Virus record (IMG/VR): IMGVR_UViG_3300046660_000488
Location: 408,640 to 472,639 of that record
Reading direction: 5' to 3' (one strand)
Length of the DNA: 64,000 nucleotides
DNA from: a virus
The notes under the pieces: generated by a model
The model's database searches: none
The model's input: the letters and a program-made list of their open reading frames with translations, nothing else
What the model was told of the DNA's origin: nothing
In this document: one piece after another, positions 26,588-50,477 of the stretch
Layout of the letters: every line of letters starts with the position of its first letter
Numbering within the stretch: position 1 is the stretch's first letter
Position numbers and translations under genes: made by a program

Positions 26588-28231
<1,644 letters not shown>

Positions 28232-35591: not shown

Positions 35592-36617
35592 ATGACTACG
35601 AACGCAAAAGCAGCACTCGTTGCGGCCCTGAAGGCCGCCAAGGAAAAGAGCAGCGGCCAAGGCCAACGCACCACCACGAGCACTGGCGACAACGCTTCCT
35701 ATCCCTTCTGGAAGATGAATGTCGATGAGGACGCCCTGCTGCGCTTCCTCCCCGATGGCGACGAAGCCAACCCCTTCTTCTGGACCAACCTCGAACGCAT
35801 CAAGCTGCCCTTCGCCGGTCAGGAAGGCGGCGACTATCCGACCTCCAAGCAGGTCGAAGTCACCATCCCCTGCGTCGAAATGTGGGGCGAGAAGTGCCCG
35901 GTCATCGAAGCCATCCGCCCTTGGTGGAAGGACGAGGCCCGCAAGCCGACTGCACGCATCTACTACAAGAAGGTCAGCTACATCTTCCAAGGCTTCGTGA
36001 AAGCGTCGCCGTTCGCGGAAGAGAACGCTCCGGAAAACCCGATCCGTCGTTTCATCATCAACAAGTCGATCTTCAAGAAGATCGAGGACAGCCTGATGGA
36101 CCCGGACATCGAGAACATGCCGACTGACTACCTGTCGGGTCTGGATTTCCGGATCAAGAAGGAACAGCGCGGCGAATACGCCAACTACGACAACTCGAAG
36201 TTCATCGTCACCAAGCCCCGCTCGCTCGACGAGCAGGAACTGCTGGCCATCGACCAGTACAAGCTGTTCGACCTGAAGCAATTCAAGGGCGAAAAGCCGG
36301 ACGCTGATCGCATCGCCGCCATCAAGGCGATGTTCGAGGACTCGCTGGCTGGTCGTCCGTTCGACTTCGCGTCCTACGGCCACTACTACCGCGCCTACGG
36401 CGGCGGCAACGGTGGCGGCGGCAACGACGACAACGCCACGGCGTCGGCTCCGGCCTACGTCCCGGCTGCTGTCGCTGCTGCTCCGGCGCCGGTGGTTCAA
36501 GCTGCGGCTCCCGTCGCCGCTGCTGCTCCGGTCACGGAAGCTGCTGCTGCTCCGGCTGGCGCCTCGCCGCAAGACCTGCTGGCGATGATCCGCAACCGCA
36601 CGCAAGCCAACAGCTAA
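35592..36617 (+). CDS. single-stranded DNA-binding protein (T4 gp32-like)
   Basis: NASYPFWKMNVDEDALLRFLPDGDEANPFF resembles the gp32 FLP region. An acidic Ala/Pro-rich C-terminal tail is present. A GATAAATAC box lies about 85 nt upstream. Confidence 0.65.
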   Translation: MTTNAKAALVAALKAAKEKSSGQGQRTTTSTGDNASYPFWKMNVDEDALLRFLPDGDEANPFFWTNLERIKLPFAGQEGGDYPTSKQVEVTIPCVEMWGEKCPVIEAIRPWWKDEARKPTARIYYKKVSYIFQGFVKASPFAEENAPENPIRRFIINKSIFKKIEDSLMDPDIENMPTDYLSGLDFRIKKEQRGEYANYDNSKFIVTKPRSLDEQELLAIDQYKLFDLKQFKGEKPDADRIAAIKAMFEDSLAGRPFDFASYGHYYRAYGGGNGGGGNDDNATASAPAYVPAAVAAAPAPVVQAAAPVAAAAPVTEAAAAPAGASPQDLLAMIRNRTQANS

Positions 36618-36708
36618 GCGTCAACCTACGTCCCGAGGGGTCAAACCCTCGGGACACCTTCCTCCCACAATTGAAAGCTCGTCACGTGGCATGACCGCGC
36701 GATGAGTC

Positions 36709-37827
36709 ATGAAAGCAAACATGGTTCTACCTTTTGACATTTCAAAGCTGCGGAAGGGGATCGATAAGTCGATCCAAGGTCTGTCCCATGGCTTCAACGA
36801 TCCCAAGACGTGGCTGAACACGGGCTGCTACGCCCTGAACTATCTGATCTCTGACGATTTCTTCGGCGGAATTCCGCTGGAAGGCAAGTTCACGATGTTT
36901 GCTGGGGACTCCGGTTCCGGCAAGTCCTACATCGCGTCGGCCAACCTGATGAAGGACGCTCAGGCGAAGGGTGTGTTCCCGATCCTCGTGGACACCGAAA
37001 ACGCTCTGGACGAGTCGTGGCTGAAGGCTCTGGGCGTCGATACCGCTCCGGACAAGATGCTGAAGATCAGCGGCGCCACCATCGACGACGTGTCGCAGAT
37101 GATCGGCATGGCCATCGACAACTACAAGGCCGAGAACGACAGCAAGCCGTATGCGGAGCGTCCCAAGATGCTCTTCATCATCGACTCGCTGGGGATGCTG
37201 ATCACGCCCAACCAAGAAAAGCAATTCATGGAAGGCGATCAGCGAGGCGACATGGGTCTGAAGGCCAAACAGATCACGACAATGCTTCGTGTGACGATGG
37301 CCAAGATCGCGTCGCAGCCCATCGGCCTGCTGGCCACAAACCACGTGTACGACTCGCAAGACCAGTACAAGCCCGACACGATCCCCGGCGGCAAGATGCT
37401 GGAGTTCGCTTCGTCGGTCATCATCCAGATGAACAAGTACCTTCTGAAAGAAGACGAAGAAGGCAACAAGCTCACTGGAGGTGAAGTGGCAGGCATCCGC
37501 TCGACGGCCGTGGTTCGCAAGAGCCGCTACGCCAAGCCGTTCGAGAAGCTGTATATCAACATCCCCTACGACAAGGGCATGGACCCCTACTCGGGTCTGT
37601 TCGACCTCTTCGAAAAGAAGGGTCTCGTTGTCCGCGAGGGCATGCGGTACGTCTATACTTCGCCGGTCACCGGTGAAGTCTTCAAGGACTTCCGCAAGCG
37701 CTACAAGGCCAACGGCTGGCTCGACATCATCATGGGCGAGAAAGAAGGCTGGGACGTCGAGGAAGCACCCGCAGGTGGTTTCGACCACACGGACTCCGCA
37801 GATTACGATCCGGTTTCGGACAAGTAA
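36709..37827 (+). CDS. RecA-family recombinase (UvsX-like)
   Basis: Walker A FAGDSGSGKS is present and the RecA-like core is collinear. Confidence 0.8.
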   Translation: MKANMVLPFDISKLRKGIDKSIQGLSHGFNDPKTWLNTGCYALNYLISDDFFGGIPLEGKFTMFAGDSGSGKSYIASANLMKDAQAKGVFPILVDTENALDESWLKALGVDTAPDKMLKISGATIDDVSQMIGMAIDNYKAENDSKPYAERPKMLFIIDSLGMLITPNQEKQFMEGDQRGDMGLKAKQITTMLRVTMAKIASQPIGLLATNHVYDSQDQYKPDTIPGGKMLEFASSVIIQMNKYLLKEDEEGNKLTGGEVAGIRSTAVVRKSRYAKPFEKLYINIPYDKGMDPYSGLFDLFEKKGLVVREGMRYVYTSPVTGEVFKDFRKRYKANGWLDIIMGEKEGWDVEEAPAGGFDHTDSADYDPVSDK

Positions 37828-37906: not shown

Positions 37907-38146
37907 ATGAAAAGTGAGAGCAAGGTGATTGCCGAACTGTGGGATTTGGTTCGGGATCACATTCCTGTCGCTCGACGACTGGAAACCGCAATCTCGTTTC
38001 TTCGCATTTTTGAAGAATACGGGTTTGAAGACAAGGACATGCAGGACATCGTAGACGAGGACAAAGTTTTGGCCCGCGCTTACGACGATCTGTATGGCAA
38101 TGACGAGCCGGAAGACGATTCCAGCTACGACGAATACGAGGACTGA
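37907..38146 (+). CDS. hypothetical small acidic protein
   Basis: A 79-aa ORF. Confidence 0.35.
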   Translation: MKSESKVIAELWDLVRDHIPVARRLETAISFLRIFEEYGFEDKDMQDIVDEDKVLARAYDDLYGNDEPEDDSSYDEYED

Positions 38147-38148
38147 GT

Positions 38149-38622
38149 ATGGCGCGCTGGTTTCACAAAGTTACGGCGGACCCCGCTGTCTACCCGACCC
38201 TAGCGCAAGCACTGCTGTACTTCTTCAACGAGTACGACAAGTCGGGCGAGGATATCCGTCCGCCTCGTGGTACGAAGCTCTGGGACGTGTCGGTCAAGTT
38301 GCCGGGCGTCATGGAGTATCGGTTCGGGCAACTCCAAGAGATTGAAGCATTGCTGAAGCTCTTGGAGATTCGCTACGACAAACTCTACACCGAGAAGAAG
38401 CGTCACTTCCTCGAAAACTACAATCGAAACGTCAGCGACCGGCAGGCCAGTGAAATGGCCAACGTCGAGCAAGACGTCATCGAAGTGCGCGAGTTCATCC
38501 AGCAGACAGCACTTATTCGGAACCTCTATTTGGGTCTGATTAAGGGTTTGGAAACGCTGCACTATCAGATGGGACACCTCGTCAATCTGAGACGTGCACA
38601 AATCGAAGACGCGACCTTCTGA
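38149..38622 (+). CDS. hypothetical protein
   Basis: A 157-aa ORF. Confidence 0.45.
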   Translation: MARWFHKVTADPAVYPTLAQALLYFFNEYDKSGEDIRPPRGTKLWDVSVKLPGVMEYRFGQLQEIEALLKLLEIRYDKLYTEKKRHFLENYNRNVSDRQASEMANVEQDVIEVREFIQQTALIRNLYLGLIKGLETLHYQMGHLVNLRRAQIEDATF

Positions 38623-38638
38623 TGCTGTTCGTGGGAAA

Positions 38639-38646
38639 CTAAATAC
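38639..38646 (+). promoter_or_regulatory. late-promoter-like box CTAAATAC
   Basis: The box lies 24 nt upstream of ATG 38670. Confidence 0.4.
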
Positions 38647-38669
38647 CACAACTATTCGAAAGGCCGTCC

Positions 38670-39101
38670 ATGTCTTCAGCAGCAGTTTACTCGAACCACG
38701 CCGGTACGATGTCGGAATCGTTTGTCATTGGCAAACGAGGCGTCAAGCTGCTGCAAGGTGTTGGCGATCCTACCGGCATTTCCGCGCCGGTTGGATCGCT
38801 CTACCTCCGCCGGGACGGCGCCCGCTGCGTCTATCAAAAGAACGCCGACAACTGGGTTGCGCTGCTGTACGCAGAAGCGGTCACCAAGTTCGCCACCTTC
38901 ACCAATTCCGATCTCGTGTCAGGCGTCCTGACCATCGTCCACACGCTGGGCGTCGAGTTCCCCATCGTCCAAGTGTGGAACGACTCTCGTGAATTGGTCT
39001 TCCCCGACAAGATCACATGTGTCGATGACAGCACAGTTACGATTGACCTGAATTCGTCTGGTGCAATTTCAAGTACTTGGCGCGTCAGAGTTAGCCTATA
39101 A
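38670..39101 (+). CDS. tail fibre-related protein (shares its C-terminal domain with the 39152 gene)
   Basis: The C-terminus TIVHTLGVEFPIVQVWNDSRELVFPDKITCVDDSTVTIDLNSSGAISSTWRVRVSL is paralogous to the C-terminus of the next gene. Confidence 0.5.
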   Translation: MSSAAVYSNHAGTMSESFVIGKRGVKLLQGVGDPTGISAPVGSLYLRRDGARCVYQKNADNWVALLYAEAVTKFATFTNSDLVSGVLTIVHTLGVEFPIVQVWNDSRELVFPDKITCVDDSTVTIDLNSSGAISSTWRVRVSL

Positions 39102-39151
39102 TCAAACCGCCGTTCTTCTAAATAGGGACTCCATATAGGGGAGTCTATACT

Positions 39152-40327
39152 ATGGAATACGGCAATATTCTTGCTCACGGTTTCTTCAAGCAGACCGCGA
39201 CGTCTTACCTTCAAGTCGCGGCAGGCACAACCGCGCAGCGTCCGGTGGCAAATGCCGCCGCAATGATCCGTTTCAACACGGACAACACCCGCCTTGAACT
39301 TCATAACGGCACGAACTGGGCCAATGTCGGCTCGGGCGACGGCACGGTCACGTCTGTCGGCCTGACCTCGAACACCGGCGGCATCACGGTCACCGGCGGC
39401 ACGATCACCACAAACGGTTCTTTCGTCCTCAATCTGGGTGGCGAACTGGCTGGACTTAACGCTCTGGCCGCCACGGGCATCGTTTCGCGCACCGGCGCGG
39501 CAACCTATACCCCGCGTCAAATCACCGCATCTTCGGCCGCAGGCGCTCAAGGGATCACGCTGACCAACGGCGACGGTGTCTCGGGCAACCCGACTGTCGG
39601 CATGTCGATCAACGCTCTGGCGAATGCCGCCAGCGTTCTGGGCACGCACACCACGGCGGTCTTCGACGGCACGAACAACGTGAAGGCCACCTTCGCGCAG
39701 ATCGCCACGTTCATCGACAGCCAGTTCGTCAGCCAAGCTGGCGACACGATGACCGGCCTGCTGGTCCTGTCGGCCGACCCGGTTGCCCCGCTCGGCGCCT
39801 CGACCAAGTCCTACGTGGACAACGCCGTCGTCTATACGGCTGGCAACGGTATCGCGATCTCGGCTAAGGCCGTCAGCGTCAAGACCACCGGCGTCACCAC
39901 CGGCATCGTCTCCAGCAACGTCGCGGTCATGTCGTCGGCTATCGCTGGCCAAGTCCTGCGTTCGACGGGTTCGGCTGCTGCTGAAGCTGCGTACGGCGCG
40001 GTTGACCTGACCAATGCCAACGCCGTCACCGGCGCTCTGGGCATCGCCAACGGAGGTACGGGCGCCACCACGGCCGCTGCTGCTCGCACGGCTCTGGGCA
40101 TTCCGGGCATCTACCGCACGGCGTTCACGAACGCCACGCTGACGGCCGGTGTCCTGACCGTGACCCACAGCCTTGGCAACAAATTCGTGCAAGTACAGGT
40201 CACTGACAACACGGACAAGGTTATCCAGCCGGACGACATCACCATGACGAGCACGACGGTGACGACCATCGACCTCACGTCGTACGGCACGCTTACTGGC
40301 ACTTGGAATGTCTGCGTCGTTGGATAA
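39152..40327 (+). CDS. tail fibre protein with a Phage_fiber_2-type repeat
   Basis: SYLQVAAGTTAQRPVANAAAMIRFNTDNTRLELHNGTNW carries the GTTAQRP...R(F/Y)N motif. The shaft is G/T/A-rich. A CTAAATAG box lies upstream. Confidence 0.65.
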   Translation: MEYGNILAHGFFKQTATSYLQVAAGTTAQRPVANAAAMIRFNTDNTRLELHNGTNWANVGSGDGTVTSVGLTSNTGGITVTGGTITTNGSFVLNLGGELAGLNALAATGIVSRTGAATYTPRQITASSAAGAQGITLTNGDGVSGNPTVGMSINALANAASVLGTHTTAVFDGTNNVKATFAQIATFIDSQFVSQAGDTMTGLLVLSADPVAPLGASTKSYVDNAVVYTAGNGIAISAKAVSVKTTGVTTGIVSSNVAVMSSAIAGQVLRSTGSAAAEAAYGAVDLTNANAVTGALGIANGGTGATTAAAARTALGIPGIYRTAFTNATLTAGVLTVTHSLGNKFVQVQVTDNTDKVIQPDDITMTSTTVTTIDLTSYGTLTGTWNVCVVG

Positions 40328-40335
40328 CTAATAGC

Positions 40336-41136
40336 ATGAGAGAAGGTGCAGCAACTACCGGGAACATTACCCAAGTATCGTCTGGCTTCTTCAAACTGGC
40401 AAGCGGAACGACGGCCCAACGGCCGTCGTCTCCGTCTGCCGGGATGATGCGCTACAATTCCGATCTTGGTTATGTCGAAATCTATCAGTTGGGCTCGTGG
40501 CAAGCACAGATCGATGCTACCCTGAGCAATGCGGCAATTCAGCTTCCGGCTGGTACGACAGCACAACGCCCCAGTCCGGCGACATCTGGGATGGTGCGCT
40601 ACAACTCGAACAACGCTCTGATCGAAACCTACGCCAACGGCACGTGGAACAACATGCCGCAACTGGGTAGCACGGTTTTGTCCGCGCAGAACCTGACGTT
40701 GCTTGACGGCAATCCGACCGGTTACATGGCCTATTGGAAGGACCCACTGACCTACAACAAGACGTTGTCGGTCATGATGCTGGCCTACCATTTCTCCGTT
40801 GCTACAGCATACAATTTGACTTGGCTTCAGATCGATCCTTCAATTACTGGCTCTACGGTCGGGTATATTGCCCCGACGAACATTACGCTGACGTTCATGA
40901 CTGCGTTCACGGACAAGGCATCCGCGAAGACGATTTCTCTGTACATCGAGGACGTCGAATACACGAACCGCGTCATCTTCACGGGTAGCGGCGACATCAC
41001 TGACGAAGCTCACTCGGCTCCGCTGAACATCGACGTTTCCGCCGGGCAGAAGATTCGTCTGCGTTGCCGGGCGTTGAACAGTTCGGACCAAGGCTCCCTC
41101 GTCTGTGCAGTCTACTTCATGACTAGAAAGGTGTAA
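40336..41136 (+). CDS. tail fibre protein with two Phage_fiber_2 repeats
   Basis: The motifs are ASGTTAQRPSSPSAGMMRYNSDLGYVEIYQLGSW and PAGTTAQRPSPATSGMVRYNSNNALIETYANGTW. The C-terminus is ...FMTRKV. Confidence 0.6.
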   Translation: MREGAATTGNITQVSSGFFKLASGTTAQRPSSPSAGMMRYNSDLGYVEIYQLGSWQAQIDATLSNAAIQLPAGTTAQRPSPATSGMVRYNSNNALIETYANGTWNNMPQLGSTVLSAQNLTLLDGNPTGYMAYWKDPLTYNKTLSVMMLAYHFSVATAYNLTWLQIDPSITGSTVGYIAPTNITLTFMTAFTDKASAKTISLYIEDVEYTNRVIFTGSGDITDEAHSAPLNIDVSAGQKIRLRCRALNSSDQGSLVCAVYFMTRKV

Positions 41137-41137
41137 T

Positions 41138-41917
41138 ATGGGTGTTATCTACAACCCTTCAACGACTGATGACGTTGAAATCGAAGACCTCGGCATCACT
41201 ATTGTGGCCGAACAGGTGTTCGATATCACTTACATCCGCCGACTGACGGTAAAGACTTCACCGGGGCTGTACAACGCGATTTCGAATGGTGTTCTGTACT
41301 ACGTTAGAGACGTCACGAATGGCGTCGTCACTACCATGTCGATCAGCGACGGTCTCGAAATGATCGAGAACGGCGTCACCGGCGCCCAAGTCGGCGTCAA
41401 CAAGCCGACTCGTCCGGGCATCATCGTCGGGAACTTTTACGGCGTCTCCACGGACGAGCCGTTGATCGACGACGACACCCCGGCCGATCACCTCAACGCA
41501 ATCGCGGTGAACTATCTCGACGAGCATTTCAACCGGATCGGCGTCTGCGTCACGACGGCGGTGGCCAATGCGGTCATCCGCCTTGGCGTCTACGAGAACG
41601 TCAACGGGTTTCCGGGCAAGCTTCTCCTCGATGCTGGCGCGGTCCCGTGCGACACGGCAGGCAACAAGGAAATCGTCATTGATTTCCACACGCCGAATGA
41701 CTGGTGCTTCCTAAGCACCCACACCAGCCATGACGTTGAAATGAAGTCGGTGACGTCTCAGAACAGTGTATTCGGCAATTCGGGTACTGATCTGACGAGC
41801 GTTGTCCGACACATCCACACCGATCTCACCTATTCAGGCGCGTTGCCGGATGTATTCCCGGCCAACGCTGTAACCTCCAGTTCGTATCCGCCGTTCGTGT
41901 GGTTCAGAAAGGTATAA
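41138..41917 (+). CDS. tail fibre tip / receptor-binding paralog
   Basis: The C-terminal region LGVYENVNGFPGKLLLDAGAV...PPFVWFRKV is paralogous to the C-terminus of the 42491 gene. Confidence 0.5.
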   Translation: MGVIYNPSTTDDVEIEDLGITIVAEQVFDITYIRRLTVKTSPGLYNAISNGVLYYVRDVTNGVVTTMSISDGLEMIENGVTGAQVGVNKPTRPGIIVGNFYGVSTDEPLIDDDTPADHLNAIAVNYLDEHFNRIGVCVTTAVANAVIRLGVYENVNGFPGKLLLDAGAVPCDTAGNKEIVIDFHTPNDWCFLSTHTSHDVEMKSVTSQNSVFGNSGTDLTSVVRHIHTDLTYSGALPDVFPANAVTSSSYPPFVWFRKV

Positions 41918-42379
41918 ATGGCAACCAGAAACGAAACATACGACGGTTCGGGCAATCTAATTTCCCTCGTGGACGACCGCGACATCAATGATGTCAAAGT
42001 TAACAAGTGGAATCAGATCAACGTCTTCCGCGAAGTCGTCCTCAATCGTGGCCTGTGGTATCTCGGATACCTCTGGAACACCGATGAGCGCAGCCGTCAA
42101 AACATCACCGGTGTCACCGCAGGCATCGCGGCGGGCATCGGCCTCCCGCCGGGCTTCACGTGGCGCGACATGAACAACAACAACGTTCCGTTCACAACGA
42201 CGAACACCGTCACCCTCGCCGGGTTGACGATGGCCTACGTGAACATGGTCTACAACGCTTCGTGGGAAATGAAGAACGAAGTAGATGCGTTGACCACTGT
42301 AGAAGAGATCGACGCCTATTCCATTCCCGACAATGCGAATTGGCCGAACGGTGATATGGACGGCTCCAGACCTGCGTAA
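41918..42379 (+). CDS. hypothetical protein, probably fibre-associated
   Basis: A 153-aa ORF. A hairpin terminator lies at 42378..42403. Confidence 0.4.
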   Translation: MATRNETYDGSGNLISLVDDRDINDVKVNKWNQINVFREVVLNRGLWYLGYLWNTDERSRQNITGVTAGIAAGIGLPPGFTWRDMNNNNVPFTTTNTVTLAGLTMAYVNMVYNASWEMKNEVDALTTVEEIDAYSIPDNANWPNGDMDGSRPA

Positions 42380-42418
42380 AACCCTTGTAACTACGGGTTT
42401 TCTTGCCGTAAAAGTTAA

Positions 42419-42426
42419 CTAAATAC
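42419..42426 (+). promoter_or_regulatory. late-promoter-like box CTAAATAC
   Basis: The box lies 65 nt upstream of ATG 42491. Confidence 0.4.
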
Positions 42427-42490
42427 CCCCTAACAATTCACTGGGGGCAATTGCCCGAACGTTCAGCGTTCGGGCAATCTTTATGAGCGC

Positions 42491-43351
42491 ATGAGAGTCG
42501 GAACAAGATCAGTCGCAGACATGTGGCAAACGTCTACTGGATATTTCCAAGTGGCCGCAGGGACAACTGCCCAGCGCCCGACGTCACCACGAAGCGGCAT
42601 GATGCGGTTCAACACCACGTTCCAGAACTATGAATACTACGCCAATGGCGCGTGGTTCCAGAGCCCCAACAACAAATACGACGGCGTCCGAGCGCCCACC
42701 GAGCAAGATTCGTCCGGCTTCGCAATCGGGAGCACATGGTTTTGGGGTGATCGTGTTTTCGTCTGCGTTGACGCGACCTCGGGCTCGGCTGACTGGATGG
42801 AAATTGCAACCGAAATGGACGTTCAGGCGGATCATCCGGGTGTCGCGATTGGTCGGTATTACGGGACTGCAACGGACGGCATGATGTCCACGTACACATT
42901 TTCGGACAGCGTTCTCTATGCGATTCCGTGTCAATTCCCGGCCGGTTACACGTTCAACCGGATCGGTGTTGAAACGATCTCTCGCCATACCGGATACAAC
43001 GTCCGCTTGGGAATCTACAGCAACGTGGACGGGTCGCCAAGTTCCCTGCTGCTCGACGCCGGTATCGTTTCGGCTTCGACGGTCGGTCTCAAGGAAATCG
43101 TCACCAATTTCACGACCGATGGCGACTGGTTCTGGCTGGTGTGCAATTTGCAGACCGACATGATCCTTCGGTCGATGAAATGCCCAAGCTGGGTCGCCGG
43201 TGGGGCGGTCCTCGGGCGGATGGTCAGCGGTGGTGATCCAGTCGTCCGGGTGTCGGCGACGCAAGCCTACGGCCCGCTCCCGTCCACGTTCCCGGCTTCG
43301 AAGACCGCTTCGGCCGACGACGCTCCCCAGCTTTGGCTTCGAAAGGTCTAA
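42491..43351 (+). CDS. tail fibre protein paralog (Phage_fiber_2 repeat plus a shared tip domain)
   Basis: The motif GYFQVAAGTTAQRPTSPRSGMMRFNTTFQNYEYYANGAW is present. The C-terminus LGIYSNVDGSPSSLLLDAGIV...PQLWLRKV is shared with the 41138 gene. Confidence 0.6.
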   Translation: MRVGTRSVADMWQTSTGYFQVAAGTTAQRPTSPRSGMMRFNTTFQNYEYYANGAWFQSPNNKYDGVRAPTEQDSSGFAIGSTWFWGDRVFVCVDATSGSADWMEIATEMDVQADHPGVAIGRYYGTATDGMMSTYTFSDSVLYAIPCQFPAGYTFNRIGVETISRHTGYNVRLGIYSNVDGSPSSLLLDAGIVSASTVGLKEIVTNFTTDGDWFWLVCNLQTDMILRSMKCPSWVAGGAVLGRMVSGGDPVVRVSATQAYGPLPSTFPASKTASADDAPQLWLRKV

Positions 43352-43791
43352 ACGCAGCGCGCGGTCGAGCGCAGCATCCAACGGTGTTTCTGGTGGGTCT
43401 CGATGCGCTCACCAAGGAAATTGGCCAGACCCTGTTGGTTCTCGTCGGTGGCCATCTGGAGCGCGACGGTCATCAGGTCGATCAACGTCTCGTGGGCTTC
43501 CATGAGGGCCAGCAGCACGCCTTGCAGGATGAACGGCTGCGGGTCGATCTCACCGACCATGCTCAGGGCGCTATAGGCCGACAGGGACGCAGGTGCCTTG
43601 GCGTCGAGCGCACGAAGCTGCTCGGCGTGGCGATCAAGTGCTTCCCACTGATCATCGTATTGATCCTTGAACATGCTGTGCAGGCCATAGAAATTCGGCC
43701 CCTCGACATTCCAGTGTGCACCATGGGTGGACAGGTAGACTGAGAAAGCGGTCGCGAGGACTTGCTGCATGATGGCGGTCAATTCTTCCAT
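43348..43791 (-). CDS. Dps-like ferritin / DNA-binding protein from starved cells
   Basis: The start was chosen at MEELTAIMQQ. LATAFSVYLSTHGAHWNVEGPNFYGLHSMFKDQYDDQWEALDRHAEQLRALDA matches the Dps ferroxidase-site pattern. A CACTAAATAC box lies immediately upstream on the minus strand. Confidence 0.6.
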   Translation of the reverse strand: MEELTAIMQQVLATAFSVYLSTHGAHWNVEGPNFYGLHSMFKDQYDDQWEALDRHAEQLRALDAKAPASLSAYSALSMVGEIDPQPFILQGVLLALMEAHETLIDLMTVALQMATDENQQGLANFLGERIETHQKHRWMLRSTARCV

Positions 43792-43881
43792 GGCCGTATT
43801 TAGTGCAGATCGTCCTTGCATTTTTCGGTCAATGTGGTATCCCAGATTGAAATTGCAGCGCTAACCAGCAGGGGTATTTCG

Positions 43882-44610
43882 ATGGCCGGGAAGATGGACG
43901 TCAAGCAATCCGACATCGACGCCTTGATGGACATGTTCGGTCCGGAAGACCTGCATCCCGATCTGGTCCATCGCATCGAAGAGCGCGGGAACGGCCACAA
44001 GGTCTTGCACCATCCGCTGATCATCGAGCCGATGTACATGCCGCAACTGCACAAGCGCATCAACCTGATGTACGCGCAGAAGACTGCCGCGCTCGAAGAG
44101 GCAATCGCGGCGCGCAACTGGCCCAGCTACGTCTACCTCCACGAGCGCCCGTACCGCTTCGACGCCCTGACCACGGTGATCTACACCTACCTCGACGGCG
44201 AGATCGACGCCAAAGGCTGGGACCTGATCGGCGGCGTCTGGGTGGACAGCGAGAACATCTATCAGAACCTCGAAGACTGGGAATGCCTGTGGGACGGGAC
44301 CGACCTCGGCGACCGCAAGGCCAGCATGAGCAAGGATGAGCAGAAAGCGTTCAAGGCCCTGCCGCCGGTGATCGACGTGTGGCGCGGATTTGCCCATGAC
44401 GAAGCCATGCTCGGGATGTCGTGGACAACCGATAAAGAACGTGCGATTTGGTTTGCGAAACGATTTGCCGCCGACTCCACTCGCAAGCCGATGCTGGCGT
44501 CTGGGCGGGTCAAGAAGAAGCACGTGTTCGCCCACTTCCTCGGCCGCAACGAGTCCGAGATCGTGACGCTGGGCGAGTACGTCGATGGCGTGACGATGGA
44601 GAAGCTGTGA
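43882..44610 (+). CDS. hypothetical protein (start uncertain)
   Basis: The ORF runs 43816..44610. The start at MAGKMDVKQ is the one past the convergent Dps gene. Confidence 0.4.
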   Translation: MAGKMDVKQSDIDALMDMFGPEDLHPDLVHRIEERGNGHKVLHHPLIIEPMYMPQLHKRINLMYAQKTAALEEAIAARNWPSYVYLHERPYRFDALTTVIYTYLDGEIDAKGWDLIGGVWVDSENIYQNLEDWECLWDGTDLGDRKASMSKDEQKAFKALPPVIDVWRGFAHDEAMLGMSWTTDKERAIWFAKRFAADSTRKPMLASGRVKKKHVFAHFLGRNESEIVTLGEYVDGVTMEKL

Positions 44611-44960
44611 GCGACCGTGACCTGAAGGCGTGGATCATCCTCCGCAAAGACTTGCCCGTCATCAACACCGAACCGACCGCCTTCAGCGTCGCCGTCGCCG
44701 TGGACATGATCCACATCGACAAGAAGGGCACGTACGGCGAATGGCTTGACGCCACCAAGGGCAACCGGAAGAAAACGATCATGAAGGTCGCCGACCTGCC
44801 CACGTTGGAGCAGATCGCCAAGGCGCTGGTCAACGCCAACGTCGAGCACGCCATGATCCACGAGAAGGGTGACGCGGTCGCAACGCCGACCACCACCGGC
44901 CTCCTGATCTACCCGACCTTCGAGTGGCGCCTGCCCTCGTTCTTGAGGAAGCCAGCATGA
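44607..44960 (+). CDS. hypothetical protein (GTG start)
   Basis: The second half of track ORF 44448..44960. Confidence 0.35.
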   Translation: MSDRDLKAWIILRKDLPVINTEPTAFSVAVAVDMIHIDKKGTYGEWLDATKGNRKKTIMKVADLPTLEQIAKALVNANVEHAMIHEKGDAVATPTTTGLLIYPTFEWRLPSFLRKPA

Positions 44961-45157
44961 GCATCGACACCGATCTCGCCGACGAACTGTCGGACGTCGT
45001 CCTTCACGTCCAGAACCGGCTGAAGGGCAACTTCGGCGGCCAAGACAACACGGTCGAAGTCGTCACCGGCGTCGTGCAGGCCTATGCCATCGTCAAGGCC
45101 TCTTATGTCGCCAAGGGCTGGGTCAAGCAACCACAGGCGCGGAGCGCGTGGGACTGA
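44957..45157 (+). CDS. hypothetical small protein
   Basis: A 66-aa ORF. Confidence 0.3.
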   Translation: MSIDTDLADELSDVVLHVQNRLKGNFGGQDNTVEVVTGVVQAYAIVKASYVAKGWVKQPQARSAWD

Positions 45158-45381
45158 TGCGGGGCCGCAAGCTCCAGACCGGCCGCTACGAGACGCGAGA
45201 AGAGCTTGAGGCCGCGATCCGCGAGGATTACCACGGCACGTCCTTCACCGTGAAACAGGTCGCCTTGCTGAACCGCTGCTCGATCCCGACCGTGCACGCG
45301 GTGCTGAACGGCAAGACCGCGATCCAGAAGGAACGGCTGGCCAAGCTGCTGGAGGCTCGTGATGCCTTGCCCAGTCTGTAG
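45148..45381 (+). CDS. small HTH DNA-binding regulator
   Basis: A 77-aa ORF. FTVKQVALLNRCSIPTVHAVLNG looks like a helix-turn-helix. Confidence 0.4.
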   Translation: MGLMRGRKLQTGRYETREELEAAIREDYHGTSFTVKQVALLNRCSIPTVHAVLNGKTAIQKERLAKLLEARDALPSL

Positions 45382-45580
45382 GTCCAACAACCTCTGGGAC
45401 GACAATCTCGCGTGGGGCTGCGACGACTGCGATTTCTTCACGACCGGTGGGATCAGCAACCGCATCAGCCCGGCTGACAAGTTCAACCAGCCTCGCGCGC
45501 CAAAGCCGATCAAGCGGGTGTGCGACTGCCGCGAGCATGGGCATCACTGCACATGCCACGTACCGGAAGTCCCCTTTTGA
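45359..45580 (+). CDS. small Cys-rich Zn-finger protein
   Basis: CPVC...CDDC...CDCREHGHHCTC. Confidence 0.35.
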   Translation: MMPCPVCRSNNLWDDNLAWGCDDCDFFTTGGISNRISPADKFNQPRAPKPIKRVCDCREHGHHCTCHVPEVPF

Positions 45581-45837
45581 AGACTCGCGTCGTCAACCTT
45601 CGGAAGTCCCGATACGACGTCTACATCGGCCGGGGGTCGATCTGGGGCAACCCGTTCGTCATCGGCAAGGACGGCGACCGCGCCACGGTGATCGCCAAAT
45701 ACTGCGACTACCTGATGCACCGACCAGACCTTCTCGCCCGGCTGGGTGAACTGAAGGGCAAGGTGCTCGGATGCTTCTGCCATCCTCTCCAATGCCATGG
45801 CCACGTGCTGGCCGAACTCGCGGATGCTTACGGATGA
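45520..45837 (+). CDS. DUF4326-like protein (start uncertain)
   Basis: YDVYIGRGSIWGNPF...GCFCHPLQCHGHVLAEL. Confidence 0.4.
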   Translation: MRLPRAWASLHMPRTGSPLLKTRVVNLRKSRYDVYIGRGSIWGNPFVIGKDGDRATVIAKYCDYLMHRPDLLARLGELKGKVLGCFCHPLQCHGHVLAELADAYG

Positions 45838-46046
45838 AAACCCACATGCAACTGGCCGACGCCATGGTCGAAGTCATGCGAGCGCGCGAAGCGCTGGACA
45901 AGGCGCGCGCCGACGAGAAATACTGGGAAGGTGGCTTCAATCACAAATGGAACGAAGCCATCGCCAAGCGCACCAGAGCAGAGGCCCGGTACGAGGCCGC
46001 CGCCAAGGCCTACGAGAACGCCGTGAGCATCTGTGTCGATGCCTGA
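45834..46046 (+). CDS. hypothetical small protein
   Basis: A 70-aa ORF. Confidence 0.3.
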   Translation: MKTHMQLADAMVEVMRAREALDKARADEKYWEGGFNHKWNEAIAKRTRAEARYEAAAKAYENAVSICVDA

Positions 46047-46374
46047 GCTACGTCCGCGCCTAAACCTCGTCTCTGAGGCTCCTGACGGCTCTGGGGCGGG
46101 CCTTGGTGGCTATCTCTGGGTGGTGCTGTCCAGACATTCCGATCCGGTGGGGAAATTCCCGATCATGGCAGGCGCCATGGAGGAATCCTTCGCGAGCGAG
46201 GCGCGGGCGATCTTCGGCGCGCGCTATCGCCTGTACTGCGGCTGGCCGCACGTGGACGTGTACAAGACCGTAGCCCTGTCGATGGCCGATACACGCAAGC
46301 CGGAGGACATCCCGGCCGACGAGGACGCCGACCTGATCGCGGCCATCGAGCGCTACAACAACTCGGAAAGCTGA
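46033..46374 (+). CDS. hypothetical protein
   Basis: A 113-aa ORF followed by a terminator. Confidence 0.4.
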   Translation: MSMPELRPRLNLVSEAPDGSGAGLGGYLWVVLSRHSDPVGKFPIMAGAMEESFASEARAIFGARYRLYCGWPHVDVYKTVALSMADTRKPEDIPADEDADLIAAIERYNNSES

Positions 46375-46389
46375 ACTAAAAAGGCCGAG

Positions 46390-46417
46390 CGCGAAGCCCG
46401 GCCTTTTCGTTGTGGAC
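46390..46417 (+). terminator. rho-independent terminator at the end of the plus-strand small-gene block
   Basis: GGCCG-agcgcgaagcc-CGGCC followed by TTTTCGTT. Confidence 0.45.
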
Positions 46418-46500
46418 GTGGTGATGGTGTTCTCCATGGCAGGTCGGCAGATCGCAAGCGATCCCCGTACGCGGAAGCCGTAGCCACCAACGCATTCCCC

Positions 46501-46737
46501 TCACGGGGCGTCTGGTCCCGCAGCCGTAGCTACGCCGTTTTCCTCGCCCGACAGCGAGTCCACGGATGGAGGAACGAAAATTTCAGGAATGTACGGACAG
46601 TAGATGCGGTTGGCTTCGCCATCCGGGCTCACGGAGTACCAAGGCCTGCGGTGGTCGATCTCGGCAATCGTCACCTCTTCGCCGTCTTGGAAGTAACGCT
46701 TGACGGTCGTCTCGCTGGCCGGAAACTTAGAAACCAC
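46501..46737 (-). CDS. hypothetical small protein
   Basis: A 78-aa ORF. Confidence 0.3.
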   Translation of the reverse strand: MVSKFPASETTVKRYFQDGEEVTIAEIDHRRPWYSVSPDGEANRIYCPYIPEIFVPPSVDSLSGEENGVATAAGPDAP

Positions 46738-46921
46738 TGGTTGCCCTATAGTCTGTGTACAGCGACTTCAGATCGCTGTCGGTGAGGCCGTACTGATACT
46801 TCGCCCATTCCGCCGATGCGGTATAGTCGCGGAAGCCTTTGACGGCGACGCCATCGACGATGATGTTGACGCTCCCCAGCACTTCACGAAGCTGGATCGT
46901 CTTGCCGTTCTTCTCGACCAT
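46727..46921 (-). CDS. hypothetical small protein
   Basis: A 64-aa ORF. Confidence 0.3.
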   Translation of the reverse strand: MVEKNGKTIQLREVLGSVNIIVDGVAVKGFRDYTASAEWAKYQYGLTDSDLKSLYTDYRATSGF

Positions 46922-46941
46922 GGGTCACTCTCGCTGTTGGA

Positions 46942-47078
46942 TGGTTTCGGGGGCGGGCTTCGAACCCGCGACCTCCCGCGCGGAACATGTCTGGCCAGAC
47001 CATGTCCCATGTTGCACGAGCGCTCTTCTCCGCCTCAGCGCCTTAACAAGGCGCCTCTGGTCCTCTGAGCTATCCCCT
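46942..47078 (-). tRNA. tRNA-like element with a GTT (Asn-type) anticodon arm, a T-arm and an encoded CCA; 137 nt long, so non-canonical
   Basis: On the minus strand: GGGGATAGCTCAGAGG... GCGCC-TTGTTAA-GGCGC (a 5-bp stem and 7-nt loop with U33). After a roughly 60-nt insert carrying a 12-bp hairpin comes GCGGG-TTCGAAG-CCCGC-CCCCGAA-A-CCA. The acceptor strands do not pair as written. Confidence 0.3.
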
Positions 47079-48392
47079 AGACGTGGGTGTGCACATATTA
47101 GGTGGCACGGGCCGGACTCGAACCAGCCTCTAGGTGACAGGCATTGTGCACATGCAAGCCACCCCAAACGGCAACCATCTGACCGCTAATCAATGGGCGT
47201 GTATACCACCCACCTTCCGCAGTCCCGCTGACGCGCCAAAGAGGTGATGCAGGATCGAAGTGGCTTCTCCCCGGCATCGAGCGTCCCGCCATCGTCCATG
47301 TCTCTCGCGCGGGTAACATGGAAAACTTTGGCCTGTGCAATTCCCGCAGCAACACCCCACTATGCTTAGGACACGCCGAAGCGCACCCACCACCGTGCTG
47401 CAACGTTTTCGCAAACGCTATGCCCGATGCCTTGCGGCAGAGCGGGAACCTGTGTTGCCCGATACGGGCGAATTTTGTCGAGGTGAAGCCTTTAGGTCAG
47501 CCTTCACGTGTGCTGTCCACGAGTGCGGCCTACCCCTAAACGGTGGCGGCTCCGTCTCGCGTACGTCTTCACCTCGAATCCGCCCTAGTCCATGCGCTCA
47601 GAGGCCTCATCGGCATGGAGGGAGGCGAATATGGTAGAGAACGGTCGGAAGTCTCTCCGACATGCTCCGGTGACCGGAGTGCTTTAGCCGTAACCGCCCT
47701 AGCCTCGTTGTATACCCAGCGCGACGAGGTCCGGACCTCATTGTCACGCCTTCGTCTGGCAACCTTCAGGTGGAGTGCGCTTATTAAGCTACGTCCTCGT
47801 CTCTTGTGCTCATACGAGCAAAACTCTGGCGGCACGATTGGAACCGGAAATCGAACCTTCACCGGCGATCTTGCGACCGCCTTCCAGTGCCCTCACGAAC
47901 ACTGCCAACTCGTTTCACTGTCAAGTCACTGGGCAATTACTCCAGATCGTCTGTTGCGAGTGCGAGGACCCTACCTCGTAGTGCCGCCGTCGTCGGGGGT
48001 TTCGTCCCAAAGCGAGTCTGGGGATCGAACCTGCCGATTGGTGTGCCTGTTCAGGCAAATTGTGGGGAAGGCATGGACAAGCCATGCTCTGATCCTCGTG
48101 GACCATTCCAATCCCCGGTCTACCCCATCTTCATGGCCAGAAGAATGGCCTGTGGCAGACTTTTCGTGTTGCCCATTGCGGGCGAAAGGTGACGGACTAT
48201 GGACTTTTACCCCGGCTTTTTCGTACAGGTGGTTCCGCAACGCCCGTACACCGCATTCTCATGCGTCAGCTTCACGCACGATTTTCTCAACGAGAGGATC
48301 AGCGACTGTTCTTTCGCAAGTCTGGCAGTTTCACCGCCTAACTGATCTTCTCGAATTATCGCATGGCGCGCGGGAACCACGTTCGTCCCATA

Positions 48393-48459
48393 CATTCGTT
48401 CGAGGGTTCGAACCCCGGACCTCCGCTTCCGCGACGCTCTCCCACTGAGCTAAACGACC
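48393..48459 (-). tRNA. tRNA-like element (D-arm and T-arm canonical; anticodon region too short)
   Basis: On the minus strand: GGTCGTT-TA-GCTC-AGTGGGA-GAGC ... CGGGG-TTCGAAC-CCTCG-AACGAAT. Six of seven acceptor pairs form. Only 18 nt lie between the D-stem and T-stem, where about 22 are expected. Confidence 0.3.
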
Positions 48460-49357
48460 AACTCGCCATGCTATCCCCGGTTTGGTGGCCACCTCACCGA
48501 GGAATTCCTGTGGCCGTTCATCACGGCCGAATGTTCCGGCTACTGGGGGCTCTTTTTCACGAGTGGTCTAATCTCGCTACTAGACAGCCCTTTCCACCGT
48601 GGACGTTAGACCGAATGGGGACCAACCCATCCTTTTTCACGCCCGTCTTGCTTGCGGGTGGGACGCGACCCCCACTGTCTGCATTGCCAACCGGATGAAC
48701 CGGGCTCTCCGCAAATTCTGTTGCCGTTTCCGGCGAATGGCTGACACGGGCAATCCTACTTCCCACCGTCGCGGGTGTCGGATGCTCCTATGAAACCATG
48801 TCGGCCTCGAACCGATCCTCCCCCGATCAGGGGGCACACTACCCGTTGTGCTACAGCTTCCGTGTCCAAAGGGAGTCTATAGCCTCCCAGAGGTTGTTGC
48901 TCATGCGAGCGAATTTTGACCAGCGATTGACATCAGCAGCGCTACTTCAATCACGAACGAGGTGGGGGCGCCAGTCCCCACTTTCCCCAGTGTTTGCTGG
49001 GGTCTTATAAGCTGATAGATCACTCGTTCTACGCTTGGTCGTTCAGCAGTCGGCGCCGCTCAAGAGACAGCACCGTCGCCTACACTTGGATGCCCATGCG
49101 GGCAAATGGTTATGCGCGGGCGGATTTATACCACCGGCCTCCCCGTTGGAAACGGGCTCTCTCGCCCTCCGACCGTTTACTGACAGGTGCGTTTGCAACC
49201 GCGCCCTGCGTTCAACGTATCGAAGCCCAACGACGTCATGGTCACATCCGACTAACGGCGGGTAGTTTACCCCATGCCAGTTCGTTGCCTGAGCTACGCG
49301 CAACTTTGATGCCCATGCGGGCAAATTGGTACGCAGATGGGGTTTCCCGAGGAAACT

Positions 49358-49424
49358 ATACCGGTTGGATTCGAACCAACGCGCACGAGCAATGCTCGCT
49401 GCTCTCCCGCTGAGCTACGGCCCT
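49358..49424 (-). tRNA. tRNA-like element (canonical 5' half and T-arm; acceptor 3' strand mismatched)
   Basis: On the minus strand: AGGGCCG-TA-GCTC-AGCGGGA-GAGC ... GTTGG-TTCGAAT-CCAAC. The middle is CGAGC-ATT-GCTCG, a 3-nt loop rather than an anticodon loop. Confidence 0.3.
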
Positions 49425-50477
49425 TCAATCATGTGGGGATTGTAACCCCTGCACCGCCGAACGGGCACGATCATCTACGATCTCGATTTCCATCCTGTTT
49501 CGTCAACCGGTCGTCCAGAACCGATGCTCGAAGCATCAGAGACCCATCACCACTGACCACCCGCATTGCGCGGGTGACGGGGATTGAACCCGCCGGTCTC
49601 ATTCTTTTCGATCCTTGTACTTCGGACCCATAAACGACCGATTGACGGAACAGGATAGAATGTCTTGAACTTTGCATGTAACCAAATCTCGACTATCGCC
49701 GCAGTGTTGCACACCGCGTGGGACTGTCTCCCACTGTTCTCCGTCCAAAAGCTGGCAATACGCCGCCCTCGCATCAAGCAGGGCGTGGGGCATTCTCCCA
49801 CTGCAAATCGGTTAGAACCTGCCCTATTCCGCTCCCGCTGTGCGGGAGGTGGTCATCACCACTGAATTGGTTACAAGCAAAATCCAAGTTGTTGTTGATG
49901 CGAGACCGCCGACCATCTGCACAAGCCCGAAGGCGGCATGATCGTTCGGCGGTCTCGCCTCACCACGTCTCACAATGTCAAAGAACCCTTCCGAGGAAGG
50001 TGTCAGTGGGTTGCCCCGCCAACGTTTGAACCGTATACTTGAGTGCCAAGTTGAAGTCAAGCACTCATTTCGAATTTCGTGAAGGTTTCTTTCCCACCTA
50101 CAAAGTCAGCCTTTCGGCAGTTGCTTCTAAACGCCCAGCCCCGCGCTTCTTAGGGTCGAAACCCTCCACGTCACCCGAAGGTGAAAGGCTTATCCAACTG
50201 GCAGATTCAAACCGTCCCAACCCGTGTCGGACCTTGCGGGCAATTATTGAGACGTACCGGGCCTGCTGATCCAAGTGGGAACACAGGAGGCATCCGCTTT
50301 ATCCCAGACCGGATTATTCTGGTCAACGAGAAAACGACGGCCCCGACGCGAATGCACGAGTGAGGGGTGTCGAACCCCCACAGACCGCTTTCGGTTCCCG
50401 TTCTGCCTGCTGGTCGGCCCGGCATAATAGGTACTACGATCACCCGTGCATTCACGACGAGGCCGTCGCTTCGAAGA

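What the first reader, a model, noticed from the sequence alone, without database searches (positions are those of the whole stretch)
43348..43791. Phage-encoded Dps-like ferritin behind a late-type box
A Dps/ferritin-like four-helix-bundle signature (HWNVEGPNFYGLHSMFKDQYDDQWEALDRHAEQLR) occurs in a 147-aa ORF. CACTAAATAC sits immediately before its ATG. Dps in a phage is unusual. It may protect replicating DNA from oxidative damage or sequester iron. It may also be a virion DNA-associated protein.
Basis: partly seen in the sequence, partly recalled or inferred. Interest (0 to 1): 0.5.

Follow-up and report, generated by a model that had tools for sequence, protein, structure and literature searches.

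The report
Late-expressed Dps mini-ferritin in jumbo phage
A giant T4-related phage carries a real, apparently catalytically intact Dps iron-detoxifying protein behind a T4-type late promoter box, but phage Dps genes are already documented, so this is a solid and fairly ordinary finding.

Summary
Window 43348-43791 (minus strand) encodes a 147-aa Dps-family mini-ferritin. It matches Pfam Ferritin at 4e-23 and the solved P. aeruginosa Dps at 1e-21. The AlphaFold model has pLDDT 95.6, and the top 50 structure matches are all Dps.

The window is a T4-superfamily jumbo phage. CTAAATA occurs 16 times against 0.86 expected and precedes the sheath, terminase and tail-fibre genes. It matches the late promoter described for Aeromonas phage Aeh1.

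At the Dps gene the box lies 5 nt before the ATG, which predicts a leaderless late mRNA. This box-to-ATG arrangement and the gene's position recur in related phages sharing 52-65% identity.

The protein is acidic (pI 4.95) and has no basic tail. DNA condensation or a virion DNA-associated role is therefore unlikely. The best reading is late-phase Fe2+/H2O2 detoxification.

Dps is rare in cultured phages but common in viral metagenome contigs (at least 592 in IMG/VR), and phage Dps has been reported before. I rate it a new member of a known kind, of modest interest.

The parts
43348..43791 (-). Dps-family mini-ferritin gene, 147 aa, ATG start at 43791, TAG stop at 43348-43350
   Evidence: The ORF is listed. 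It matches Pfam PF00210 at 4.3e-23, PHROG 3636 at 2e-28 and PDB 8ff9 P. aeruginosa Dps at 1.1e-21. The AF2 model has pLDDT 95.6 with helices 2-28, 34-61, 70-76, 89-116 and 120-146. The Foldseek top 50 are all Dps, with TM 0.86-0.93. Gene GC is 0.595 and GC3 0.764, like the rest of the window at 0.589.
43621..43716 (-). Segment encoding the ferroxidase-centre ligands: H26 (43714-43716), H38 (43678-43680), D53 (43633-43635), E57 (43621-43623). W27 is at 43711-43713.
   Evidence: The codons were read directly. The residues align with E. coli Dps H51/W52/H63/D78/E82 and are invariant in 23 sequences. H26, H38, D53 and E57 are also invariant in 120 sequences. They align with the iron ligands H37/H49/D64/E68 of P. 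aeruginosa Dps (alignment; ligands from PMC10002758).
43797..43803 (-). CTAAATA box, a T4-type late-promoter-like motif.
   Evidence: There are 16 copies in the window against 0.86 expected. Copies lie upstream of the tail sheath, TerL and tail-fibre-like genes. CTAAATA beginning at -12 is the late-promoter motif of T4-like phage Aeh1 (PMC1524935). The box is conserved before the orthologous Dps genes in L003/L008 (ATAAATA), L006 (CTAAATA), L009 and L010 (ATAAATA).
43792..43796 (-). 5-nt spacer CGGCC between the box and the ATG, with no Shine-Dalgarno sequence. The predicted transcription start is at or next to the A of the ATG, giving a leaderless mRNA.
   Evidence: The sequence is. T4 late boxes occupy -13 to -6 (PMC1524935), so +1 falls 6 nt after the box; this step is inference. 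TAAATA-N5-ATG occurs 8 times against 0.03 expected.
43348..43351 (.). 4-nt tail-to-tail overlap (CTAA) of the Dps stop codon with the stop codon of the convergent tail-fibre-like gene 42491-43351 (+). There is no room for a terminator.
   Evidence: No terminator-like site was found in the junction. The gene calls show the same 4-nt overlap in L003 (3693-3696) and L006 (4777-4780).

Best explanation
The gene encodes a genuine Dps (dodecameric mini-ferritin) that has long been resident in a clade of T4-superfamily jumbo phages.

It is most likely transcribed late, from a T4-type late promoter (CTAAATA) that abuts the start codon. The mRNA would then be leaderless or nearly so.

The protein most likely assembles into a 12-mer cage. 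Its inter-subunit di-iron ferroxidase centres (H26 and H38 from one subunit, D53 and E57 from the partner) would oxidise Fe2+ with H2O2 and store the Fe3+ inside. That would suppress Fenton chemistry in the infected cell while large amounts of phage DNA are being replicated and packaged.

It would protect DNA chemically rather than by coating it, because it is acidic and has no basic tail.

Shown here: family membership, fold, conservation of the catalytic residues, over-representation and position of the box, and synteny. Inferred: late timing, leaderless transcript, dodecamer, H2O2-dependent ferroxidase activity, and benefit to the phage.
For: Family and fold:
- Pfam Ferritin 82 bits. The 58 PDB sequence hits are Dps-family proteins or constructs built on a Dps scaffold; the best is P. 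aeruginosa Dps at 1e-21.
- AF2 pLDDT 95.6 with four long helices plus a short BC helix. The Foldseek top 50 are all Dps, TM 0.86-0.93.

Catalytic residues:
- H26/W27/H38/D53/E57 are invariant and have the same 12/15/4 spacing as E. coli H51/H63/D78/E82.
- They align with the crystallographic iron ligands of Pa Dps, which uses H2O2 rather than O2.

Long residence in the phage lineage:
- Gene GC and GC3 equal those of the phage.
- Orthologues at 49-65% identity occur in five related contexts (L003/L004/L008, L006/L007, L009, L010). In L003/L008 and L006 the gene sits next to the DUF4376/tail-fibre genes and UvsX/gp32, on the strand opposite its neighbours; L009 and L010 share the UvsX linkage.
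- The best cellular relatives reach only 43%.
- An NJ tree places it in a 27-sequence clade with no sequence from a cellular genome. That clade lies inside a 120-sequence clade holding all 80 IMG/VR sequences.

Late control:
- CTAAATA occurs 16 times against 0.86 expected and precedes the sheath, TerL and tail-fibre genes. It equals the Aeh1 late motif.
- The box-to-ATG spacing is conserved in orthologues.
- In another T4-like lineage, Dps sits between gp16 (TerS, PF11053) and gp17 (TerL) in 22 of 80 loci, again within a late module.

No DNA coating: pI 4.95, net charge -10, and no Lys/Arg-rich tail.
Against: - No expression, assembly or activity data exist for this or any phage Dps that I could find.
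- No gp55-like late sigma factor was found among the roughly 40 window ORFs scanned. Most of the phage genome is outside the window: the identical protein is on record on a 578-kb contig.
- The transcription start is inferred from T4 and Aeh1 geometry, not mapped.
- Convergent overlap with the tail-fibre gene implies antisense transcription, which could limit expression.
- NCBIfam Dps equivalog models score far below their cutoffs (40 against 114 bits). It is a divergent subfamily whose oxidant preference and iron capacity cannot be assumed.
- The closest solved relative, Pa Dps, also cleaves DNA in vitro, so ferroxidase need not be the only activity.
Confidence: 0.6

Rival explanations
1. Iron store or iron chaperone for the phage. 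The Dps cage would sequester host iron late in infection and supply it to iron-requiring phage proteins, for example His-coordinated iron in tail-fibre tips or di-iron enzymes. Oxidative protection would not be its main role.
For: - In this clade the gene lies directly beside a cluster of tail-fibre-like genes (40303-43351), and that adjacency is conserved.
- The ferroxidase and storage machinery is intact.
- It shares late timing with virion proteins.
- From established knowledge, the T4 gp37 fibre tip binds iron through HxH motifs.
Against: - In the other T4-like lineage the gene sits between TerS and TerL, not by the fibre genes. Adjacency to fibres is therefore not general.
- By eye, the neighbouring fibre-like proteins show no run of HxH motifs.
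- Dps cages release iron poorly compared with ferritins (established knowledge).
Confidence: 0.15
2. DNA-binding, DNA-condensing or virion-packaged protein. The Dps would coat or compact phage DNA, or be packaged in the capsid with the genome.
For: - PHROG 3636 is labelled 'DNA binding protein'.
- A late promoter is typical of virion components.
- Dps is linked to the packaging genes TerS and TerL in 22 of 80 related viral loci.
Against: - The subunit is acidic (pI 4.95, net charge -10).
- Compared with E. coli Dps it lacks the 25-residue Lys-rich N-terminal tail, and it has no basic C-terminal tail.
- Several tail-less Dps proteins, such as that of A. tumefaciens, protect DNA without binding it (PDB 1o9r title; PMC10002758).
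- There is no N-terminal extension that could act as a capsid-targeting peptide.
- A 9-nm cage could not pass through a tail channel (inference).
Confidence: 0.1
3. Nuclease-type activity. Like P. aeruginosa Dps, the 12-mer would cleave DNA in a divalent-cation-dependent way, and the phage would use this against host or competitor DNA.
For: The closest solved relative (8ff9; 32% identity in the Foldseek alignment, E 1e-21) shows in vitro DNA cleavage that is independent of H2O2 and O2.
Against: - The residues responsible for cleavage in Pa Dps are not defined, so conservation cannot be checked.
- Pa Dps has positive surface patches, whereas the phage protein is strongly acidic.
- A late-expressed nuclease would endanger the phage's own DNA (inference).
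Confidence: 0.05
4. A passenger gene with no role for the phage: a captured host gene that is merely tolerated.
For: It lies on the strand opposite its neighbours, like a moron insertion.
Against: - It is retained at the same place across phages whose GC content ranges from 36% to 59% and whose Dps proteins share 49-65% identity.
- Its composition is fully ameliorated to that of the phage.
- Catalytic residues are invariant.
- It has its own conserved promoter box.
Confidence: 0.05

Closest known systems
Pseudomonas aeruginosa Dps (PA0962; PDB 8ff9)
   Same: It is the best solved match: phmmer E 1.1e-21, Foldseek TM 0.91, rmsd 1.4 A, 32% identity. It has the same four iron ligands (H37/H49/D64/E68 = H26/H38/D53/E57), a short non-basic N-terminus and no C-terminal tail.
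   Different: It is cellular and stress-induced, not phage-borne. Only part of its Tyr radical-trap network is kept here: Y30 and Y84 correspond to Y19 and Y73, while Y27 is F16 (alignment). The phage protein is more acidic.
E. coli Dps (PDB 1dps/1f30)
   Same: Same fold, and the ferroxidase residues have identical spacing.
   Different: Identity is only 21% (19% in the Foldseek alignment). The phage protein lacks the 25-residue Lys-rich N-terminal tail needed for DNA condensation. It scores 40 bits against the 114-bit cutoff of the E. coli-type equivalog model NF006975.
Previously reported phage DPS genes: Synechococcus phage S-SRM01, Lactobacillus plantarum myophages, gut 'Gratiaviridae', Clostridium tetani phages
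   Same: All are phage-borne Dps-family genes interpreted as oxidative-stress or iron auxiliary genes (PMC8008677; PMC6669764). S-SRM01 is a T4-like myovirus whose annotated Dps is 33% identical.
   Different: They are only 22-33% identical to this protein. They come from different phage lineages and gene contexts. None is reported with a late box abutting the start codon.
Uncultured T4-like phages with the gene order gp15 - gp16(TerS) - Dps - gp17(TerL) - gp18 (e.g. IMG/VR locus L061)
   Same: They belong to the same viral Dps clade at 36-45% identity. The Dps again sits in a late morphogenesis module, and often has an ATAAATA box 4-7 nt before the ATG.
   Different: These are low-GC phages (33-46%). 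The Dps is co-oriented with TerL and abuts or overlaps it, rather than being a lone opposite-strand gene beside tail-fibre genes.
T4-family late promoters (T4 TATAAATA; Aeromonas phage Aeh1 CTAAATA)
   Same: The motif is identical to the Aeh1 variant (PMC1524935). It is over-represented and lies upstream of structural genes.
   Different: At Dps and about seven other ORFs the box lies only 4-5 nt from the ATG. That implies leaderless transcripts, which I did not find described for T4-like phages.

Membership tests
Dps (DNA-protection-during-starvation mini-ferritins; Dps branch of Pfam PF00210) | Significant sequence match to the ferritin-like domain and to characterised Dps proteins | tested here: met
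   PF00210 scores 82.2 bits against a cutoff of 24.5. The 58 PDB sequences matched at E<=0.01 are Dps-family proteins or constructs built on a Dps scaffold. NCBIfam hits only Dps and DpsA models.
Dps (DNA-protection-during-starvation mini-ferritins; Dps branch of Pfam PF00210) | Subunit fold: four-helix bundle with a short helix in the long B-C loop | tested here: met
   The AF2 model (pLDDT 95.6, pTM 0.91) has helices 2-28, 34-61, 70-76 (the BC helix), 89-116 and 120-146. The Foldseek top 50 are all Dps, TM 0.86-0.93.
Dps (DNA-protection-during-starvation mini-ferritins; Dps branch of Pfam PF00210) | Inter-subunit ferroxidase centre ligands (His, His, Asp, Glu) with canonical spacing, plus the adjacent Trp | tested here: met
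   H26, W27, H38, D53 and E57 align with E. coli H51, W52, H63, D78 and E82 and are invariant. They match the Pa Dps ligands H37/H49/D64/E68.
Dps (DNA-protection-during-starvation mini-ferritins; Dps branch of Pfam PF00210) | Assembly into a hollow dodecamer with 23 symmetry | not testable with these tools
   Only monomer prediction is available. The ligands are split between two helices as expected for a dimer-interface site, but assembly itself was not modelled.
Dps (DNA-protection-during-starvation mini-ferritins; Dps branch of Pfam PF00210) | Fe2+ oxidation (preferentially by H2O2) and iron core formation | not testable with these tools
   This needs biochemistry.
E. coli-type DNA-condensing Dps (equivalog NF006975) | Basic Lys/Arg-rich N- or C-terminal tail that mediates DNA binding, and a score above the equivalog cutoff | tested here: not met
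   There is no N-terminal extension; the first residues are MEELTAIMQQ. pI is 4.95 and net charge -10. NF006975 scores 40 bits against a cutoff of 114.
T4-family late promoter | Match to the (T/C)ATAAATA or CTAAATA -10-region box | tested here: met
   CTAAATA lies at 43797-43803 on the minus strand. It is identical to the Aeh1 late motif.
T4-family late promoter | Genome-wide over-representation and placement upstream of late (virion) genes | tested here: met
   There are 16 copies against 0.86 expected. Copies lie upstream of the tail sheath (13538), TerL (26573), phrog_29287 (24421) and a tail-fibre-like gene (42419).
T4-family late promoter | The phage encodes a gp55-type late sigma factor with gp33 and gp45 co-factors | tested here: inconclusive
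   None was found among about 40 window ORFs scanned with PHROGs. The window is 64 kb, while the identical Dps protein is on record on a 578-kb contig.
T4-family late promoter | Transcripts start about 6 nt downstream of the box, late in infection | not testable with these tools
   This needs 5'-end mapping or time-resolved RNA-seq.
Leaderless mRNA | Transcription start at or within a few nt of the start codon, with no Shine-Dalgarno sequence | tested here: inconclusive
   The absence of a Shine-Dalgarno sequence and the 5-nt box-to-ATG spacing are seen directly and are conserved in orthologues. The start site itself is inferred.

The most novel reading that the evidence does not exclude
Phage Dps may be a dedicated component of the late, DNA-packaging phase in T4-superfamily phages, rather than a generic stress gene.

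- It is recurrently wired into late modules: beside the tail-fibre genes here, and between the small and large terminase genes, abutting or overlapping TerL, in 22 of 80 related viral loci.
- In this phage lineage it would be made from a leaderless mRNA whose start codon sits at the +1 of a T4-type late promoter.
- It might guard concatemeric DNA at the packaging motor, or be built into the capsid.
Probability: 0.15. Interest if true: 0.6.

Novelty: new member of a known kind. Interest (0 to 1): 0.33.

Why it matters
If active, this Dps would show that very large phages manage iron and peroxide chemistry in the infected cell during genome replication and packaging. That would add a virus-encoded layer to oxidative-stress control.

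The comparative data point to a large, mostly viral Dps clade tied to late gene modules across T4-related phages. This makes the question 'what does a phage need a mini-ferritin for?' testable with one recombinant protein and one transcript-mapping experiment.

The box-plus-5-nt-plus-ATG geometry is a simple, checkable prediction of leaderless late mRNAs in a T4-type transcription system.

None of this overturns current understanding, because phage Dps genes are already on record.

Tried and rejected
- Megablast of 38000-50000 against 50,697 phage records found nothing. The phage has no close cultured relative.
- The longer 157-aa ORF starting at 43821 was rejected, because all homologues start at the 43791 ATG and the promoter box lies between the two ATGs.
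- A sigma-70 promoter and intrinsic terminator scan around the gene found no promoter and no relevant terminator.
- A PADLOC scan of Dps and both neighbours gave no defence-system match.
- The divergent neighbour 43882-44610 (phrog_4776) has no Pfam domain and is not consistently linked to Dps in relatives, so I did not treat it as a partner.
- The search for gp55 (late sigma) among about 40 window ORFs found none.
- Literature searches found no paper on leaderless T4-type late transcripts, and the pelagimyophage genome survey I checked does not mention ferritin or a Dps gene.
- I considered whether Dps could replace the small terminase in the TerS-Dps-TerL loci. I rejected this because a bona fide gp16-family gene (PF11053) lies just upstream.
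- I considered recent capture from the host. I rejected it on composition, synteny and the 43% ceiling of identity to cellular genomes.

Full report
**Observation**

The minus strand of the window carries an ORF at 43348-43791 (ATG, 147 aa). Its translation contains the quoted string at residues 26-60. On that strand the upstream sequence reads CA-CTAAATA-CGGCC-ATG.

A longer 157-aa reading from the ATG at 43821 is not supported. All 22 aligned homologues begin at the 43791 ATG, with M-E/D/N/K.

**What the window is**

The window is a T4-superfamily jumbo myophage. PHROG scans identify these genes:
- a 1003-aa tail sheath (13502-16513)
- two tail-tube genes (17039-17680, 17689-19095)
- the large terminase (26588-28231)
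- a gp32-like SSB (35562-36617)
- UvsX (36706-37827) and a UvsY-like gene (38104-38622)
- an endolysin and a MazG-like gene

The terminase is 57% identical to Sinorhizobium jumbo phage Phosso, 56% to Agrobacterium phage Atu_ph07, and 49% to the Pseudomonas PA5oct group. No phage record matches at the nucleotide level. The identical Dps protein is on record on a 578-kb contig, and a 67-kb assembly of the same phage was retrieved (L001).

An alphaproteobacterial two-piece tmRNA at 7763-8099 points to an alphaproteobacterial host. So does the mostly alphaproteobacterial identity of the nearest cellular Dps genes.

**What the protein is**

It is a Dps by every test available:
- Pfam Ferritin: 82 bits against a cutoff of 24.5.
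- PHROG 3636: 2e-28.
- 58 PDB sequence matches, all Dps-family proteins or constructs built on a Dps scaffold. The best is P. aeruginosa Dps 8ff9 at 1.1e-21.
- NCBIfam hits only Dps and DpsA models. All score below their equivalog cutoffs, so this is a divergent subfamily.
- An AlphaFold model built on 120 homologues has pLDDT 95.6. It shows four long helices plus the short BC helix typical of Dps.
- The 50 best Foldseek hits in the PDB are all Dps, with TM 0.86-0.93.

H26, W27, H38, D53 and E57 align with E. coli Dps H51, W52, H63, D78 and E82. My E. coli sequence was verified identical to 1f30. The 12/15/4 spacing is identical, and these residues are invariant in 23 sequences. H26, H38, D53 and E57 are also invariant in 120 sequences. 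In the alignment to 8ff9 they correspond to H37, H49, D64 and E68. Those are the crystallographic di-iron ligands of an enzyme that oxidises Fe2+ with H2O2 rather than O2.

**DNA binding**

The protein has no counterpart of the 25-residue Lys-rich N-terminal tail of E. coli Dps, and no basic C-terminal tail. Its pI is 4.95 and its net charge is -10 per subunit; its close relatives are similar.

Tail-less Dps proteins are known that protect DNA without binding it (1o9r title; discussion in PMC10002758). I therefore consider DNA condensation or a virion DNA-associated role unlikely.

**The box**

CTAAATA occurs 16 times in the window against 0.86 expected; 0 of 100 shuffles reach that count. Copies lie upstream of the tail sheath, TerL, a phrog_29287 gene and a tail-fibre-like gene.

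The T4 late promoter TATAAATA spans -13 to -6, and Aeromonas phage Aeh1 uses CTAAATA beginning at -12 (PMC1524935). The 'late-type box' label is well founded on that basis. No gp55 homologue was found in the roughly 40 window ORFs I scanned, and no transcript data exist.

With the box at -12 to -6, the 5-nt spacer CGGCC occupies -5 to -1 and the A of the ATG is +1. There is no Shine-Dalgarno sequence. The prediction is a leaderless late mRNA.

This geometry is not unique to Dps. TAAATA-N5-ATG occurs 8 times against 0.03 expected. Six of those eight ATGs, and a seventh 4 nt after a box, open ORFs with coding-like GC3 of 93-288 aa or running off the window end.

**Conservation in relatives**

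Orthologues at 49-65% identity occur in five related contexts (L003/L004/L008, L006/L007, L009, L010). In L003/L008 and L006 the gene sits at the same place, next to the DUF4376/tail-fibre genes and UvsX/gp32 and on the strand opposite its neighbours; L009 and L010 share the UvsX linkage. Where gene calls are available, they show the same 4-nt convergent stop-codon overlap.

Each orthologue has (C/A)TAAATA 5-6 nt before the ATG. In L002 an in-frame upstream ATG lies 5 nt after GTAAATA.

These phages range from 36% to 59% GC. The window gene's GC (0.595) and GC3 (0.764) match the phage's own values. The gene is thus an old resident of the lineage, not a recent capture.

**Wider distribution**

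In 22 of the best 80, the gene order is gp15 - gp16 (small terminase, PF11053) - Dps - gp17 (large terminase) - gp18. The Dps abuts or overlaps the terminase start.

The best cellular genomes reach only 43% identity. In an unbootstrapped NJ tree the window protein sits in a 27-member clade with no sequence from a cellular genome. That clade lies inside a 120-member clade holding all 80 IMG/VR sequences and only four MAG-derived ones.

Among 50,697 GenBank phage records, only 14 cover at least 80% of the protein at E<=1. They include S-SRM01, the Clostridium tetani phages, and Listeria and Enterococcus records.

Published work already notes DPS genes in Lactobacillus phages, in gut 'Gratiaviridae' and in 36 other gut phage genomes. 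It interprets them as oxidative-stress tolerance genes.

**Mechanism**

Best supported (confidence about 0.6): a late-expressed, tail-less Dps cage consumes Fe2+ and H2O2 and so limits Fenton damage while phage DNA is replicated and packaged.

Rivals:
- an iron store or chaperone for virion or enzyme metal sites (0.15)
- a DNA-binding or packaged protein (0.1)
- a Pa-Dps-like nuclease activity (0.05)
- a functionless passenger gene (0.05)

**Verdict**

Phage Dps is not novel as a category, and the virion-DNA option is unlikely.

It is a new member of a known kind. The more interesting residue is the apparently conserved wiring of Dps into late modules, together with the predicted leaderless late transcripts.

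Noticed in passing
window 7763-8099 (-): A phage-borne alphaproteobacterial two-piece (permuted) tmRNA: RF01849 at 114 bits and RF04321 at 121.7 bits, both well above gathering. It suggests an alphaproteobacterial host and phage interference with ribosome rescue.
   Followed up: no
window + strand ATGs at 53440, 58329, 59774, 61472, 63899; - strand ATG at 61422: These ORFs each start 4-5 nt after a CTAAATA box and share only their first codons, roughly nine (MR[D/E/W/Y]x[I/E][I/N/S]..; DNA about ATGCGnGAnnTnATCAAC). BLASTP finds no similarity beyond that. This could be a conserved promoter-plus-initiation cassette or an N-terminal signal. TAAATA-N5-ATG occurs 8 times against 0.03 expected. A further box-led ATG at 56993 (-) also begins MR but opens only a 5-codon ORF.
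   Followed up: partly
window 40303-41136, 41138-41917, 42491-43351 (+): Three tail-fibre-like paralogues all end in (T/F/L)RKV. Two carry the N-terminal motif 'AGTTAQRP(S/T)SP..GMMR(Y/F)N', which is duplicated in 40303-41136. They match many PHROGs of unknown function. The DUF4376 gene 41918-42379 lies among them.
   Followed up: partly
window ~47200-50400: A stretch of about 3 kb has no ORF with coding-like GC3. It contains two tRNA matches just above the Rfam gathering score on the minus strand (48393-48459, 49361-49420) and an odd ARAGORN tRNA with a 2-nt anticodon (48791-48860). It may be a degenerate tRNA or ncRNA array.
   Followed up: partly
IMG/VR loci L012-L085 (e.g. L061 3980-8067): In 22 of 80 related viral contigs, Dps sits between the small terminase (gp16, PF11053) and the large terminase (gp17). 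It abuts or overlaps the TerL start codon, within the order gp15-gp16-Dps-gp17-gp18. I found no description of this arrangement in the papers searched.
   Followed up: partly
window 17039-17680 and 17689-19095 (+): Two adjacent tail-tube paralogues both hit phrog_4542. The second is 468 aa with a long C-terminal extension.
   Followed up: no
phage records H43-H67 (Escherichia phiEco32-like podophages, e.g. NC_070981.1 29645-29815): A short region matches only residues 4-60 of the Dps, that is helix A and most of helix B, at 37-39% identity. It is annotated 'DNA-binding protein' or 'integrase'. It could be a Dps-derived fragment or a chance match (E about 0.01).
   Followed up: no
L002 10001-11160 (638.5-kb ENA contig): A second very large phage-like contig has a Dps (48% identity) on the strand opposite its neighbours. 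A glutaredoxin gene lies one gene away, and DNA polymerase B and methyltransferase genes are nearby. This hints at a redox module.
   Followed up: no
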